From Deltaproteobacteria bacterium (GTDB taxonomy: Bacteria > Desulfobacterota > Binatia > UBA9968): 33,706 nucleotides of DNA. The first letter of the stretch is position 1. Each line of letters opens with the position of its first letter. Below are positions 14,008 to 32,975 of the stretch, piece by piece. Below the pieces are notes generated by a model. It was not told the DNA's origin, searched no databases, and saw only the letters and a list, made by a program, of their open reading frames with translations. Position numbers and translations under genes: made by a program. The stretch spans positions 1-33,706 of the forward strand of contig JACPFH010000074.1 in the NCBI GenBank assembly GCA_016183075.1. The letters run 5' to 3'.

Positions 14008-14112
14008 CCTAATAGCCGCCTGGGTGAGACTTCGTCAAGGTTACGGGGACAGGCACGTAAGCGAGCCAGTCCCCGCTTCCCTAATAGCCGTCGGGTTTGG
14101 ACTTCGTCAAGG
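14008..14112. repeat. two 33-nt imperfect direct repeats in the divergent rluA-like/pheA intergenic region
   Basis: CCTAATAGCCGCCTGGGTGAGACTTCGTCAAGG (14008-14040) and CCTAATAGCCGTCGGGTTTGGACTTCGTCAAGG (14080-14112), about 27/33 identical, 72 nt start to start. Confidence 0.7.
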
Positions 14113-23847: not shown

Positions 23848-24168
23848 ATGGTCAAGGTATTGAAGACGATTTTGGTCACGCTTTTGTTTATCGTTGGCAT
23901 TACCTTCTCGATGGAGAACGCCGAGCCGCTGCGCCTGCGCTACTATTTTGGCCTGGAGACCCCGCCGATCCCGCTCTTTTTGCTCGTGCTGTTCGCGGTT
24001 CTCCTGGGTGTCCTGCTCGCGGGGCTGGGCTTTCTGTTTGATCAGTGGTCGTTAAAGAGGATGCTTCGGGAGAAGGACCGCGCGATAGCATCCTTGGAGG
24101 GGGAGATCAAGGCTTACCAGGAAAGGCGAGCGCCAGGCGGCGGTCCGCAGATAAAGGAGCAAACTTAG
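23848..24168 (+). CDS. LapA-family (DUF1049) inner-membrane protein
   Basis: 106 aa with two TM helices (ILVTLLFIVGITF; LFLLVLFAVLLGVLLAGLGFLF). A coiled-coil tail follows (KRMLREKDRAIASLEGEIKAY). Confidence 0.72.
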   Translation: MVKVLKTILVTLLFIVGITFSMENAEPLRLRYYFGLETPPIPLFLLVLFAVLLGVLLAGLGFLFDQWSLKRMLREKDRAIASLEGEIKAYQERRAPGGGPQIKEQT

Positions 24169-24188
24169 TTGCAGGGAGGCATGCGAGC

Positions 24189-25532
24189 GTGAAGGAGGCG
24201 AAAACACTAGGCGAATTAAAAAAGAGCGGTTATCCGGTGCTTTCCGTGCGCGATGAAATGCGCAATAACCTGGTGCAATACCTTGAGAGCGGCACCCGGA
24301 TTTTGCCGGGCATTATCGGCTACGATGACTCGGTGATCCCGGAAATCGAGAACGCGGTCCTGTCAGGTCACCACATGGTCTTTCTCGGGGAACGCGGGCA
24401 GGCGAAGTCCCGCATCATCCGTTGATTGGTCTCTCTGCTCGACTAGCGCATTCCGATCATCCAGGGATGCGAGATCAGTGACAGCCCGTTCAACCCGATC
24501 TGCCGGAAATGCCACCACCGCTACGGCGAGAAACTCGCGACCCCGGACGTGTCGATCGCAGACATCATCGGAGAAATCGATCCGATCAAGGTGGCTGAGG
24601 GGCGATACTTGGCGGACGAGGAGACCATCCATTATGGATTGATCCCCCGAACCAATCGCGGGATCTTTGCGATCAACGAACTTCCCGATCTGACCGAGAA
24701 GGTGCAGGTGGGGCTCTTCAATCTCATGGAAGAGAAAGACGTCCAGATCAAGGGATACAAGATCCGCCTTCCTCTGGATGTTATGATTGTGGCGAGCGCG
24801 AACCCGGAAGATTACACCAGCCGGGGCCGGATCATCACACCTCTCAAGGATCGCTTCGACGTTCAGATCCGCACCCATTATCCGCGGACCCTCCAGGACG
24901 AAATCGCCATCATGGAGCAGGAGGCCGTCTCCTTGGAACAGCGGAGTCTCGCGGTCCGGGTGCCTCAGTTCATGAAGGAGATTATCGCCAACATGACGTT
25001 CGAGGCGCGCAAGTCGAACGAGATCAACCAGTCCTCCGGCGTCAGCGTCCGGGTCACGATCAACAACTACGAGAGCATGATCAGCAACGCGGAGAAACGA
25101 GCGCTCCGGCTGCGGGAGTCGGAGGTCGTTCCGCGCATCAGCGACCTGCACTGTCTGCTGGCTTCGACGAGCGGCAAGATCGAGATGGAGTACATGGGCG
25201 AGGATCGCAAAGAAGACGAGGTCGTGCAGAAGCTGCTAAACCGCGCGATCGTGAAAGTCTTCGACCAGTGTTTTGCCATGACCGGGCTGCAGAAGGTGGT
25301 CGAATATTTCAACTCCGGATGGGGCGTGGAGGTGTCGGACGGTATGCCGTCGAAAGACTATTTGGAGGGGATCAAAGAGATCCCGGGATTGAAGGAAGCG
25401 ATTCGCGCCGTGGGGCCGGTGGAGTCTCCCGCCCTGATGGCCTCGGCCACCGAGTTTATTTTGGAAGGATTGCACCTCCATCAAAAGCTGAACAAAGAAG
25501 TAGAAGGGGGAAGGGTTACCTACGGTAAGTAA
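24189..25532 (+). pseudogene. ChlI/sigma54-activator-like AAA+ ATPase interrupted by two in-frame stop codons
   Basis: One reading frame runs from GTG 24189 (GGGAGG 9 nt upstream) to TAA 25530-25532. It contains Walker A (GERGQAKS) and a Walker-B-like segment (GIFAINELPDL). It also contains LPLDVMIVASANPEDY and ITPLKDRFD. The frame is broken only by TGA 24423-24425 and TAG 24444-24446: ...SRIIR*LVSLLD*RIPIIQGCEISDSPFNPICRKC... Confidence 0.75.
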
Positions 25533-25579
25533 CCCTCACCCCAACCCTCTCCCTCGAAGGGAGAGGGAAGGGAGAGGGT
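25532..25579. repeat. REP-like CCCTCTCCC/GGGAGAGGG hairpin between the ATPase and vWA genes
   Basis: CCCTCTCCC (25545-25553) pairs with GGGAGAGGG (25559-25567) around loop TCGAA. An outer pair ACCCT (25532-25536)/AGGGT (25575-25579) is possible. Confidence 0.6.
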
Positions 25580-25591
25580 GAAGTCTAACCT

Positions 25592-27004
25592 ATGCGTCGG
25601 GTTCGATACAGTCGTTGGAATCGCTCCGCGGCGGACTCGCCGGACGCTGAAAGCGTCTTCGAGCAACTCAACGATTACATGAATGAAACCGGTGACCTGC
25701 AGCAGGCCATGCGCCGGCTCATGCAACGGGGCATGAAACAGGGAGAGAATAAGACAGCCGGCCTGGATGATCTGATGCAGCAACTGGCGCGCGAGCTAAG
25801 GCGTCTTTACGACCGATACCGGCCCCAGTCGGCTCTCGACCGGGTCGAGCAGGAACTCCGCTCGGTAGTGGAGCAGGAGCGGCGGACACTGAAGGAGCTG
25901 CGCGACACGAAGCGCGGCATCGATGAGAAGCGGGAGTTTCTCGACCGGTTGCCGGAAAAGACGAGTGAAGCCATCGAAAAGCTTGCCTCCTATGACTTCG
26001 AGGACGAGAAAGCCAGGGCGGATTTCGAGGCTCTGCTCTCGAAGCTCGAGCAGATCCGCGAGTTGCGCCGTCTCGAAAGCCAGCTCTCGAGCATGAACCT
26101 CGAGGATGTGGACGGCGAGCTTTTGGAGAAGCTTCTGGGCGACAATGCCAGGCAGGACTTCGAAGGTGTGGCGCGCATGGAATCTCTGCTGGAGGAGGGG
26201 GGCTATGTCATCGACCGGGGCGATCGGTTCGAGCTCTCCCCGCGGGGGGTGAGGCGGATCGGCCATCTCGCCTTGCGCGATATTTACCAGAAGCTGCGCC
26301 GCGACGCGATGGGGAGACACCAGGTGAGGTCGCGCGGGTCGCATGAGCTTCTAACCGAAGTGCCCATCCGGCTCCGGCCGAAAGATTTCTACGTATACGA
26401 TTCGGAGCATTCCACGCGCGCGGCGACGGTCCTGCTCCTGGACATGAGCTGGTCCATGAGCTGGGAGGGAAGGTTTGCCGCTGCCAAGAAGGTAGCGCTC
26501 GCGATGGAGACTTTGGTCAGGTCCATGCATCCGAGGGACTATTTCGGCATCGTGGGATTTTTCACTCGCGCCGTCGAGCTCAAGCCCAAAGATCTTCCCG
26601 AAGCGACCTGGAATATGGGAGACCCGTTCACGAACCTTCAGGACGGTCTGCACCTCGCCGCCGAGCTATTGGACCGCCGGCCGAGCCAGAATCAGCAGAT
26701 GATCGTGATCACCGACGGCCAGCCCACCGCCTATTGCCGCCAGGGAAGGCTCTACTGCGAGTGGCCGCTGAGCTTCGGCGGGATCAGCCAGAGAGCGGCC
26801 GAGGAAACGCTGCGCGAGGCGGGGCGCGTGACGCGCCGAGGCATCACCATCAACACCTTCATGCTCGATGATAGCCCCGTTCTCAAAGGCTTCGTCGACG
26901 AGATGACCCGCATCAATCGCGGGCGAGCCTTCTACACCCGCCCCGACCGCCTGGGCGAATACCTCCTGGTCGACTACGTTGCCCGCAAGCGGAAAAAGGT
27001 CTAG
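25592..27004 (+). CDS. vWA-domain protein with long N-terminal coiled-coil region (COG4867-like partner of the AAA+ ATPase)
   Basis: MIDAS motif VLLLDMSWSMS, later ITDGQPT, and an acidic/coiled-coil N-terminal half. Confidence 0.85.
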   Translation: MRRVRYSRWNRSAADSPDAESVFEQLNDYMNETGDLQQAMRRLMQRGMKQGENKTAGLDDLMQQLARELRRLYDRYRPQSALDRVEQELRSVVEQERRTLKELRDTKRGIDEKREFLDRLPEKTSEAIEKLASYDFEDEKARADFEALLSKLEQIRELRRLESQLSSMNLEDVDGELLEKLLGDNARQDFEGVARMESLLEEGGYVIDRGDRFELSPRGVRRIGHLALRDIYQKLRRDAMGRHQVRSRGSHELLTEVPIRLRPKDFYVYDSEHSTRAATVLLLDMSWSMSWEGRFAAAKKVALAMETLVRSMHPRDYFGIVGFFTRAVELKPKDLPEATWNMGDPFTNLQDGLHLAAELLDRRPSQNQQMIVITDGQPTAYCRQGRLYCEWPLSFGGISQRAAEETLREAGRVTRRGITINTFMLDDSPVLKGFVDEMTRINRGRAFYTRPDRLGEYLLVDYVARKRKKV

Positions 27005-31072: not shown

Positions 31073-31942
31073 CTACTGGAAGATTTTCTGGATGCGCGCC
31101 TTCCACTCGTCTTCTCTTTCGTCCAGCTCCTTGACCAGCGTGGCCGGCGGCGAAGATCCTCTGCCCCTCCTCGCTCACCAGATAGTTCACGAAGAGCTTG
31201 GCGGCATTGGGACGGGGCGTGTTCTTATGGATGGCGACCATATTGGGCCACCAGATTCCCCCCTCCCTAAAGGTGGAGTAGGCGATGCTCGGATAGGTTC
31301 CACCCCACAGCGAGGAGGTATAGGTCAAAGTGAACACCGCCATGGAGAATTCCTTTAGCCCGACCGCAAAGTGAAGCGTGGGGAAGCCCGCCTCATACCG
31401 GAGATGATTTTGCCTTTGAATTCCGGCTTCAGCAGGTCATAGATGCTCGTCGGCACCTGCTTGGGGGAAACCAGCTCCTTGTTGTAGAGGACTCCGACCA
31501 CGTGGTTGAACATCGGGATCTGGTTCCATTCAGCCGGAAGCGCTTTCTTAACCTCCGCCACCTTTTCGTACCCGGCCGGCGTATAAGCCATAGTCCACTT
31601 GTTGAGCTCGCTTCCCGTCGGACCAGGGGAGGTGGTAAAAATGTCGGTCGCGAAGATTCCCGCCTGTGATTCGGTGCTGACCTTGCGCAAAATATCCGGG
31701 TCACCGACGTAGGTGCCTTCCACTTTGATCCCGTACTTTTTCTCAAACGCCTCGGCCGCGGGACGTATGCTGGGAAAGACCACCATTCTTAGCCTTCCCT
31801 CTTTTTTGGCTGCCTGCTCGAGCTGAGCTGTCGCACCGGGGACCATGCCGAGGATGAGGGCTAAGGTGACGGCAGCGGAAAGAAAAACCCTCGCAAGACT
31901 TTGTGAAACCTTAGTTTCAAGGGCGCTTCTGCTCATTTTCAC
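31073..31942 (-). pseudogene. ABC transporter periplasmic solute-binding protein (family 1, Fe3+/AfuA-like) with two frameshifts
   Basis: The coding signal is spread over three frames. The first frame holds a signal peptide plus the N-lobe (31355-31942; ...YGIKVEGTYVGDPDILRKV...). The second holds ...TLHFAVGLKEFSMAVFTLTYTSSLWGG...NAAKLFVNYLVSEEGQRIFAA. The third holds ATLVKELDEREDEWKARIQKIFQ*, with its stop at 31073-31075. The shifts map near the GGGG run at 31380-31383 and near GGCCGGCGGC at ~31142-31152. Confidence 0.72.
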
Positions 31943-32144
31943 CAGGCCGGAGAGTTTATTCCCCGAGGAAAATCCACACTTTTTAACCCTATTCGCTTTA
32001 CGATCCCCATAGCAAGCAGTAAATTCCGGCTCAGCGGTTTAGTCCAACCCGTTCCTTCGACTAGTCTCAGGACAGGTTTATCCCCAATGCCGGTGGACCA
32101 AGACTTGTCATAGCTTCTTACCCGGCGCCGGCATCAGGGATAAA

Positions 32145-32429: not shown

Positions 32430-32869
32430 GGGTTTTCCCGGATACAAATATCCTGGCCAGTGCAGCGGCAACTCGCGGCCTTTGCGCAGACGTTCTGCGC
32501 GAAGTTCTCAGTTCACACGAACTTCTGACTTCCGCACAAGTGCTGAGCGAACTGAAACGTGTCTTGGGGACGAAGTTCGGTGTGGCTCAGGATTTGATTG
32601 ATGACTTCATCTCGCTTATGCGGCAAGATACGGTGCTTGCGCGGCCCGGCCAACTCCCGGCGGTCAAAATCCAGGATCAGGATGACCTATCCATTCTGTC
32701 GGCTGCGATATCGGCTGGAGCCGCTGTATTCGTGACGGGTGACAAGGAGATCCTGGATATAGGTCAAATCGAGAATCTAGCGATTCTTTCCCCCAGACAG
32801 TGCTGGGAGAAACTGAAGGTCCGACCGCAGCGTGGCGCCGGACGCGGAAAATCGCGCCGCCCACGCTAA
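32426..32869 (+). CDS. PIN-domain toxin (TIGR00305-like PIN family)
   Basis: VFPDTNIL (first acidic residue), QDQDDLSILSAAISAGAAVFVTGDKEIL (conserved D...D / TGD). 147 aa. Confidence 0.87.
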   Translation: MRVFPDTNILASAAATRGLCADVLREVLSSHELLTSAQVLSELKRVLGTKFGVAQDLIDDFISLMRQDTVLARPGQLPAVKIQDQDDLSILSAAISAGAAVFVTGDKEILDIGQIENLAILSPRQCWEKLKVRPQRGAGRGKSRRPR

Positions 32870-32975
32870 CGTTGAGGCTGTAGAAAAAGGTAGAGGAAAA
32901 GATTTACAAGAAAAACGACCTCCGTGCACCCACCGGCGATAGGGATCACGCCAGGCGGGAAAGACGAAATAAACG

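What the first reader, a model, noticed from the sequence alone, without database searches (positions are those of the whole stretch)
24189..25532. AAA+ ATPase with two in-frame stop codons 21 nt apart in an otherwise intact 447-codon frame
ORFs 24045-24425 and 24549-25532 are in the same frame. The 123 nt between them also read as good protein (LVSLLD, then RIPIIQGCEISDSPFNPICRKCHHRYGEKLATPDVS). The only lesions are TGA 24423-24425 and TAG 24444-24446. They separate the Walker A (GERGQAKS) from the rest of the AAA+ core.

No frameshifts or other decay are visible, and the downstream vWA partner is intact. Two nonsense changes clustered in 21 nt with nothing else wrong is odd for a random pseudogene. 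Possible explanations are very recent inactivation, a selected loss of function, population heterogeneity in an assembled consensus, or base-call error.
Basis: seen in the sequence. Interest (0 to 1): 0.6.

Follow-up and report, generated by a model that had tools for sequence, protein, structure and literature searches.

The report
Broken ATPase gene: probable assembly artefact
The two stop codons are really in the sequence, but they lie beside one of many short missing stretches that break even essential genes across this draft genome, so the broken ATPase is more likely an assembly defect than biology.

Summary
TGA 24423-25 and TAG 24444-46 interrupt a 447-codon BchI/ChlI-like AAA+ ATPase frame, four codons after the Walker A motif. 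The claim that nothing else is wrong does not hold.

All 30 relatives searched carry one uninterrupted ATPase gene; the 14 read out in full give 465 codons, with Gly/Glu codons where ours has stops. Our copy also lacks 54 nt after 24512, and the "intact" vWA partner lacks 96 nt (after 26059) and 84 nt (after 26359). All three missing pieces are conserved segments.

The same lesion occurs across this draft metagenome-assembled genome (MAG; Binatia, 791 scaffolds, 84 N-runs). Over 155 kb compared with a congener, our genome has 21 clean gaps of 15-200 nt against 4 in the congener, and none over 200 nt. Many shift the frame, and they break both enolase copies, purL and gltB; sufD loses 111 nt in frame. 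The scaffolder's N-runs misjudge true gaps by up to about 80 nt.

I read the deletions as scaffold joins without Ns (about 0.85). Selection on this lineage looks normal, an alternative code is ruled out, and orthologs are not split. Artefact about 0.6; genuine recent nonsense mutations about 0.3. Low interest.

The parts
24189..25532 (+). BchI/ChlI-like AAA+ ATPase frame. It has 447 codons here and 465 in every ortholog read out in full. It is interrupted by two stops and lacks 18 codons.
   Evidence: Translation. Pfam PF01078 scores 30.9 bits against a 20.3 cut-off. Uninterrupted orthologs in 30/30 relatives. Alignment.
24423..24425 (+). In-frame TGA where orthologs have a Gly codon (GGA in the two congeners). 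The preceding base 24422 also differs (C>T), so the change is a CG>TT dinucleotide relative to the congeners.
24444..24446 (+). In-frame TAG where all 14 orthologs have Glu (GAG in the congeners); a G>T difference.
24512..24513 (+). Join across which 54 nt (18 conserved codons, ...RRRLEQEGDALPIEWIGR...) are missing. There is no microhomology. The His codon at the join can be read as a chimeric codon.
25592..27004 (+). vWA partner gene (coiled-coil N-terminus, MIDAS motif DMSWSMS). The frame is open, but it has 470 codons against about 530 in orthologs.
   Evidence: Pfam PF13519, 39.8 bits. Alignment to 14 orthologs.
26059..26060 (+). Join across which 96 nt (32 conserved codons) of the vWA gene are missing.
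26359..26360 (+). Join across which 84 nt (28 conserved codons) of the vWA gene are missing.
31142..31401 (-). Same phenomenon elsewhere in the window. The solute-binding-protein gene lacks 92 nt (about 31142) and 118 nt (about 31400) relative to the intact G002 ortholog; both gaps shift the frame.

Best explanation
The locus is an ordinary, strongly conserved two-gene module: a BchI/ChlI-like AAA+ ATPase plus a vWA/MIDAS partner. It looks broken because this stretch of a fragmented, scaffolded, strain-mixed MAG is locally mis-assembled.

Shown: short pieces under 200 nt are missing at many places in this assembly, with no Ns marking them. Three of those places fall in this operon (54, 96 and 84 nt).

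Inferred: these are scaffold joins where the gap-size estimate came out at or below zero, so the contigs were abutted. The two stop codons lie 66-89 nt upstream of the 54-nt join. They are most likely part of the same poorly supported consensus, for example a contig-end path built from very few error-bearing reads. On this reading the organism carries an intact 465-codon gene.
For: (1) Over 155 kb aligned to congener G002, our genome has 20 clean deletions of 19-192 nt against 6 in G002.
- By size class: 1-14 nt gaps are symmetric (10 vs 11), 15-200 nt gaps are 21 vs 4, and gaps over 200 nt are 0 vs 2.
- An excess confined to sizes under 200 nt is a technical signature, not a natural deletion spectrum.

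(2) 12 of the 20 are not multiples of 3, and none shows microhomology.

(3) They break housekeeping genes.
- Both enolase copies are split; 10 relatives carry a full-length enolase, one with a single internal stop, and two more show only partial matches.
- purL (66 and 35 nt), two gltB segments (19 and 101 nt) and an MR/MLE enzyme (103 and 133 nt) are also hit; sufD loses 111 nt in frame. The purL, sufD, enolase, MR/MLE and gltB GXGXG identities were confirmed by Pfam.
- That load is not compatible with a viable cell under the strong purifying selection seen.

(4) The assembly is scaffolded: 84 N-runs of 1-145 nt. In five N-runs measured against G002 the run lengths were 101, 28, 47, 39 and 18 against true gaps of 23, 25, 2, 1 and 14 nt. 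Gap estimates are therefore off by tens of nt, so estimates at or below zero for real gaps of 20-190 nt are expected.

(5) On our lineage the ATPase and vWA genes show normal constraint: 9 missense and 47 synonymous private changes in the ATPase, 8 and 46 in the vWA gene, like their neighbours. Outside residues 79-127 there is no private change at an invariant site. Neutral decay after a real inactivation is not seen.

(6) Local assembly errors that corrupt protein-coding genes in public MAGs, including misplaced Ns at scaffold joins, are documented (Chen et al. 2020, PMC7111523).

(7) The same gene family yields an obviously chimeric 631-aa database protein from another MAG. This suggests such highly conserved genes are prone to mis-assembly.
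Against: - No reads could be inspected, so the stops are tied to the artefact only by proximity.
- Genome-wide, the 100-300 nt flanking the 20 joins show no excess of mismatches and no excess of G>T changes. There is thus no general sign that join flanks carry base errors.
- Base-level error in the assembly seems low. The ratio of non-synonymous to synonymous private changes is the same as in G002, and the G>T/C>A share is 7.2% against 6.0%.
- Two random errors both creating stops is unlikely in itself.
- All three operon deletions are multiples of 3 (chance about 0.04-0.06). Three joins in 2.8 kb also exceeds the genome average of about one per 8 kb, although joins are visibly clustered elsewhere.
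Confidence: 0.6

Rival explanations
1. The stops are genuine and very recent. One clustered mutational event (24422 C>T, 24423 G>T, 24444 G>T within 23 nt, for example an error-prone repair patch or oxidative G damage) knocked out the ATPase in the sampled population. The deletions are either artefacts or follow-on decay.
For: - The stops are rare in this genome and are not linked to joins as a class.
- A third real-looking nonsense codon (GAG>TAG, in a UbiD-like gene on contig C393) is not near any join.
- About 2 genes with nonsense codons in roughly 57,000 codons checked is within the natural pseudogene range.
- All three nonsense codons are G>T changes.
Against: - No relaxation of selection is seen on this branch.
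- There is no private missense change at invariant sites outside the lesion patch.
- The module is present and uninterrupted in all 30 relatives and in thousands of homologs.
- The stops lie within 90 nt of a demonstrable assembly defect.
- Two nonsense hits among very few mutations is improbable under this model too.
Confidence: 0.3
2. Population heterogeneity. A minority loss-of-function allele, or several alleles from co-occurring strains, was threaded into the consensus.
For: The bin holds two diverged enolase copies, so at least two related genomes are mixed. The genome is scored at 3.2% contamination.
Against: Only one copy of this locus is in the assembly. Assemblers usually follow the majority path. 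There are no data on allele frequencies.
Confidence: 0.07
3. Programmed recoding or a natural two-polypeptide arrangement. TGA would be read as selenocysteine and TAG read through, or the gene would be split into Walker A and core parts.
Against: - Orthologs have Gly and Glu, not Cys or Sec, at these sites.
- A TAG follows the TGA after 6 codons.
- 30 of 30 relatives have one uninterrupted gene.
- About 145 domain hits elsewhere show no in-frame stops.
- The C-terminal ORF would lack the Walker A motif.
Confidence: 0.01

Closest known systems
Local assembly errors and mis-sized scaffold gaps in MAGs (Chen, Anantharaman, Shaiber, Eren, Banfield 2020, Genome Res, PMC7111523)
   Same: The genome is a scaffolded short-read MAG. 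Consensus stretches corrupt protein-coding genes. N-runs do not match the true gaps; Ns inserted where about 1-2 nt are missing were seen here and are described in the paper.
   Different: The density here, about one join per 8 kb, is far higher than the 13 errors in a 1.13-Mb genome quoted there. The dominant form here is silent loss of 15-200 nt with no Ns, which I infer rather than find described. The assembler used is unknown to me.
BchI/ChlI magnesium-chelatase AAA+ subunit with the vWA subunit BchD (PDB 1G8P, 8OSF)
   Same: There is an AAA+ core with a Walker A motif and a PF01078 match, and BchI is the best solved-structure hit (E = 1.5e-7). The partner carries a vWA/MIDAS domain encoded next door, as in BchI-BchD and MoxR-vWA pairs.
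   Different: Similarity is remote. TIGR02030 scores 38 bits against a cut-off of 467, so this is not a chelatase orthologue. The context (HU, HIT, LapA-like genes) is unrelated to tetrapyrroles. The function of this 465-aa family is unknown, and database names such as 'magnesium chelatase' or 'sigma-54-interacting regulator' are transferred labels.
Recent bacterial pseudogene created by nonsense mutation
   Same: Disabling stops relative to intact orthologs in an otherwise conserved gene.
   Different: No relaxed selection is detectable. The lesions are clustered beside an assembly join. The accompanying deletions belong to a genome-wide technical pattern.

Membership tests
AAA+ ATPase, Mg_chelatase/BchI-like (PF01078) | Pfam model score above the gathering threshold | tested here: met
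   30.9 bits against 20.3 for the read-through sequence. 27.0 bits for the intact congener protein P0003.
AAA+ ATPase, Mg_chelatase/BchI-like (PF01078) | Walker A P-loop (GxxGxGK[ST]) | tested here: met
   GERGQAKS at residues 67-74, invariant or nearly so in the 14 orthologs.
True BchI/ChlI magnesium chelatase subunit (TIGR02030 equivalog) | Score above the NCBIfam equivalog cut-off | tested here: not met
   38.2 bits against a cut-off of 466.95.
MoxR AAA+ (PF07726 AAA_3 / PF20030 bpMoxR) | Score above the gathering threshold | tested here: not met
   23.9 and 23.7 bits against 27.
vWA/MIDAS partner protein (PF13519) | vWA domain above threshold and a DxSxS MIDAS motif | tested here: met
   39.8 bits against 27. 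The motif DMSWSMS is present.
Genuine pseudogene | Disabling lesions relative to intact orthologs | tested here: met
   Two stops and an 18-codon loss, against uninterrupted genes in 30/30 relatives.
Genuine pseudogene | Lesions supported by sequencing reads | not testable with these tools
No near-identical sequence exists in any collection searched.
Genuine pseudogene | Relaxed selection on the lineage | tested here: not met
   Private changes in the ATPase are 47 synonymous and 11 non-synonymous, including the 2 stops, similar to neighbouring genes. No private change at invariant sites outside the lesion patch.
Local assembly error / unmarked scaffold join | The same lesion type in excess across the assembly relative to a close relative | tested here: met
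   15-200 nt gaps number 21 in ours against 4 in G002. Gaps of 1-14 nt number 10 against 11.
Local assembly error / unmarked scaffold join | Lesions hit indispensable single-copy genes in a way incompatible with viability | tested here: met
   Both enolase copies, purL and gltB are frame-broken; sufD loses 111 nt in frame.
Local assembly error / unmarked scaffold join | The assembly is scaffolded with unreliable gap sizes | tested here: met
   84 N-runs. Five measured runs differ from the true gap by +3 to +78 nt.
Local assembly error / unmarked scaffold join | No read perfectly supports the consensus at the site | not testable with these tools
Selenocysteine/pyrrolysine recoding | Cys or Sec (or Lys/Pyl) at the homologous position in orthologs, and a stop used consistently | tested here: not met
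   Orthologs have Gly (one has Ser) and Glu. No stops in relatives.

The most novel reading that the evidence does not exclude
All five lesions are real. This Binatia population would have shed three conserved, possibly interacting, segments of the ATPase-vWA machine by in-frame deletions, then silenced the ATPase with a clustered pair of G>T nonsense mutations. That would be an adaptive or very recent loss of a module that is otherwise kept in the whole order.
Probability: 0.07. Interest if true: 0.3.

Novelty: not a real feature. Interest (0 to 1): 0.1.

Why it matters
The main value is as a caution. Stops, frameshifts and short "in-frame deletions" in this MAG cannot be read as biology without read support. 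By extrapolation there are roughly one silent 15-200 nt loss per 8 kb, so several hundred across 4.2 Mb. Gene calls and protein lengths from this genome in public databases will be wrong at many loci, for example enolase, purL, gltB and the vWA protein here.

If the stops proved real, the finding would be an ordinary recent pseudogene in a conserved module of unknown function.

Tried and rejected
- **Independent assemblies of the same population.** I looked up the exact vWA protein. I ran exact and stop-agnostic DNA pattern scans of metagenome contigs and genome contigs. I ran two protein searches of the 5.8-billion-sequence collection. Nothing closer than 89-94% identity exists.
- **Alternative genetic code or a generally error-ridden sequence.** Rejected: about 145 domain hits carry no in-frame stops.
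- **Base errors concentrated near joins.** No mismatch excess in the 0-300 nt flanks and no G>T/C>A excess.
- **Genome-wide oxidative G>T artefact.** The private spectrum resembles that of G002: 7.2% against 6.0%.
- **A cluster of four private G>T changes at 24254-24444.** Two of them (E>D, K>N) give residues also seen in other orthologs, so only the two stops are abnormal.
- **Quasi-palindrome or template-switch origin of the two substitutions.** No inverted or direct repeat covers the sites, and the derived hairpin is weaker than the ancestral one.
- **Microhomology-mediated deletion.** None at any of the joins.
- **In-frame deletions as a sign of selection.** Genome-wide, 8 of 20 deletions are in frame, about the random share.
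- **Defence-system identity that might explain selected loss.** No PADLOC hit.
- **Compositional anomaly.** None.

Full report
**What is in the sequence.** The frame that starts at GTG 24189 and ends at TAA 25530-25532 is open for 447 codons, except for TGA at 24423-24425 and TAG at 24444-24446. The other two forward frames are full of stops. ORFs 24045-24425 and 24549-25532 are in the same frame. The product is an AAA+ ATPase of the BchI/ChlI kind. Pfam PF01078 scores 30.9 bits against a 20.3 cut-off, and weaker AAA_5, MoxR, sigma-54 and MCM hits cover the same core. The Walker A motif GERGQAKS lies four codons before the TGA. It is not a true chelatase subunit, since TIGR02030 scores 38 bits against a cut-off of 467. 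The nearest solved structure is BchI, 1G8P, at E = 1.5e-7. The downstream gene 25592-27004 encodes a coiled-coil plus vWA protein with a DxSxS MIDAS motif. Upstream lie HU-, HIT- and LapA-like genes.

**What the orthologs show.** A six-frame search found this gene in all 30 relatives searched, never with an internal stop. Every ortholog read out in full has 465 codons, and nearly all of the best 120 hits in a 5.8-billion-protein collection are 465 aa (a few differ, none as short as ours). Their names ('magnesium chelatase', 'sigma-54-interacting regulator', Candidatus Binatia / 'Deltaproteobacteria bacterium') place the organism in Binatia. Codon alignment shows a Gly codon where ours has TGA and a Glu codon where ours has TAG; both are G>T differences. 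The base before the TGA also differs, so CGC GGA has become CGT TGA. Right after ...CRKC (24512) our gene lacks 18 codons that all 14 aligned orthologs have, including invariant G, D, W, I and R residues. Orthologs are not naturally split here.

**The partner is not intact.** In three-way and 15-way alignments, the vWA gene lacks 96 nt after 26059 and 84 nt after 26359. These are 32 and 28 codons of well-conserved sequence present in every ortholog. The operon thus carries five lesions in 2.8 kb. The 10 kb of genes upstream (14.1-24.2 kb) have no private gap longer than 5 nt.

**Is this decay?** I polarised substitutions with the two congeners (G002 about 88-90% and G001 about 77-80% nucleotide identity). 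The ATPase has 47 synonymous and 11 non-synonymous private codon changes on our lineage, including the two stops. The vWA gene has 46 and 8. The eleven neighbouring genes show the same proportions, and G002's own branch has the same ratio. Outside residues 79-127 our ATPase has no private change at any position that is invariant in the other 14 sequences. Two nonsense hits from neutral drift should come with some tens of missense changes, and none are in excess. So the gene was under normal purifying selection for essentially the whole branch. The lesions are either extremely recent or not biological.

**The genome-wide test.** I fetched 268 kb of congener G002 and laid our whole assembly in the Python box. 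I compared the two by tblastn and by nucleotide alignment.
- Over 155 kb of aligned sequence, our genome has 20 clean deletions of 19-192 nt, each with gap-free 60-nt flanks at 80% identity or better. G002 has 6.
- By size class, 1-14 nt gaps are symmetric (10 in ours, 11 in G002). Gaps of 15-200 nt are 21 against 4. Gaps over 200 nt are 0 against 2.
- Twelve of the 20 are not multiples of 3, and none shows microhomology.
- The genes hit include purL (66 and 35 nt), sufD (111 nt), the glutamate synthase large subunit (19 nt) and its GXGXG domain (101 nt), and an MR/MLE enzyme (103 and 133 nt). They also include the solute-binding gene in this window (92 and 118 nt at about 31142 and 31400) and enolase. 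The purL, sufD, enolase, MR/MLE and GXGXG identities were confirmed by Pfam.
- Enolase occurs twice in this bin, on C410 and C406, and both copies are split across frames. Ten relatives carry a full-length enolase (one with a single internal stop); two more show only partial matches.

A free-living bacterium under the selection measured above cannot carry frame-breaking deletions in such genes about every 8 kb. An excess confined to 15-200 nt is also not what natural deletions look like.

**A plausible technical mechanism (inferred).** The assembly is scaffolded. It has 84 N-runs of 1-145 nt, and its contigs are cut off at 2 kb. I measured five N-runs against G002. Their lengths were 101, 28, 47, 39 and 18 Ns where G002 has 23, 25, 2, 1 and 14 nt. 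The gap estimates are therefore off by tens of nucleotides. Ns are even inserted where almost nothing is missing, an error type described for IDBA-UD and CLC assemblies by Chen et al. 2020 (PMC7111523). With that much noise, real gaps of 20-190 nt will often be estimated at zero or below, and the contigs abutted without any N. Such gaps arise, for example, where short contigs are dropped in strain-variable or highly conserved regions. That would give exactly the clean losses under 200 nt seen here. The joins are clustered in highly conserved genes. The bin holds two related genomes (two enolase copies; 3.2% contamination). A 631-aa chimeric version of this same ATPase exists in another public MAG. 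All of this fits assembly trouble where co-occurring relatives share sequence. I give about 0.85 that the three operon deletions are artefacts. That all three are multiples of 3 is then a coincidence (about 0.04-0.06). Outside the operon, 5 of 17 deletions are in frame, which is the random share.

**The two stops.** Here the evidence is weaker. Nonsense codons are rare in this genome. There are none in about 145 response-regulator and ABC domains. There are three convincing ones in about 40,000 aligned codons: the two here, and one GAG>TAG in a UbiD-like gene on C393 that is not near any join. The flanks of the 20 joins show no general excess of mismatches or of G>T changes. The private substitution spectrum is like G002's. 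I therefore cannot show that join flanks are error-prone as a class. Against that, the stops lie 66-89 nt from a demonstrated join, in an operon with three joins. They form a tight patch of three base differences in 23 nt, in a gene that otherwise shows no sign of lost constraint. Chen et al. describe local assembly errors as consensus stretches that not even one read supports perfectly, and such a stretch would look like this. A genuine clustered mutation, from an error-prone repair patch or oxidative G damage, remains a fair alternative. A quasi-palindrome or template-switch origin was tested and rejected. Recoding is excluded by the Gly and Glu orthologous codons, the second stop 6 codons later, and the uninterrupted genes in relatives.

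**What could not be done.** No independent assembly of the same population exists in the collections available: the exact-protein look-up, four DNA pattern scans and two protein searches found nothing above 94% identity.

**Function of the module, for the record.** By homology it is a BchI-like AAA+ ring ATPase paired with a vWA/MIDAS protein, like the BchI-BchD and MoxR-vWA pairs that remodel or load metal into client proteins. That mechanism is inferred from family knowledge and not tested here. It is conserved at 75-94% identity across the order. It has no PADLOC defence match and no known specific role. As written in this contig, the N-terminal product would stop four residues after the P-loop, and any restart at GTG 24549 would lack the Walker A motif, so the encoded protein would be inactive.

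**Verdict.** The best explanation is local mis-assembly in a low-quality MAG (0.6 for the whole lesion cluster, about 0.85 for the deletions). The main rival is a genuine very recent nonsense pair (0.3). Either way it is not novel, and interest is low, except as a warning about this genome's gene models.

Noticed in passing
It actually lacks 92 nt (about 31142) and 118 nt (about 31400) relative to the intact 385-aa G002 ortholog. These are the same kind of join as in the ATPase operon.
   Followed up: yes
window 25533-25583: The spacer between the ATPase and vWA genes holds a perfect GC-rich palindrome (CCCTCTCCC-TCGAA-GGGAGAGGG). Copies at 81-91% identity occur on at least 12 contigs of congener G002, and 45 nt here are absent from G001. 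It looks like a REP/MITE-like dispersed hairpin element.
   Followed up: partly
window 14039-14074, 31987-32053 and 32841-32925: Further short sequences (35-85 nt) have many copies across G002 contigs. The 35-mer is sometimes in tandem about 50 nt apart (G002 C24). These are unclassified dispersed repeats.
   Followed up: no
G000 contigs C410 (2812-4052) and C406 (1083-2328): The bin holds two diverged enolase genes (84-90% identity to G002), both split across frames by missing sequence. This indicates two related genomes in the bin as well as assembly damage.
   Followed up: yes
G000 contig C393, about position 890 (- strand): A UbiD-like decarboxylase gene has a single in-frame TAG where G002 has GAG. 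It is another G>T nonsense difference and is not near any detected join.
   Followed up: partly
database protein P0001 (631 aa, NCBI MAG): This is a chimeric version of the same ATPase family, with the region after PRTNRGIFAINELPDL duplicated from a second, diverged copy. It is an assembly chimera in another public MAG.
   Followed up: partly
G000 contigs C425, C413, C399 (loci L056-L058): N-runs of 101, 47 and 39 nt stand where the congener has only 23, 2 and 1 nt. The scaffold gap sizes in this assembly are unreliable. Successive parts of C413 also match three different G002 contigs.
   Followed up: yes
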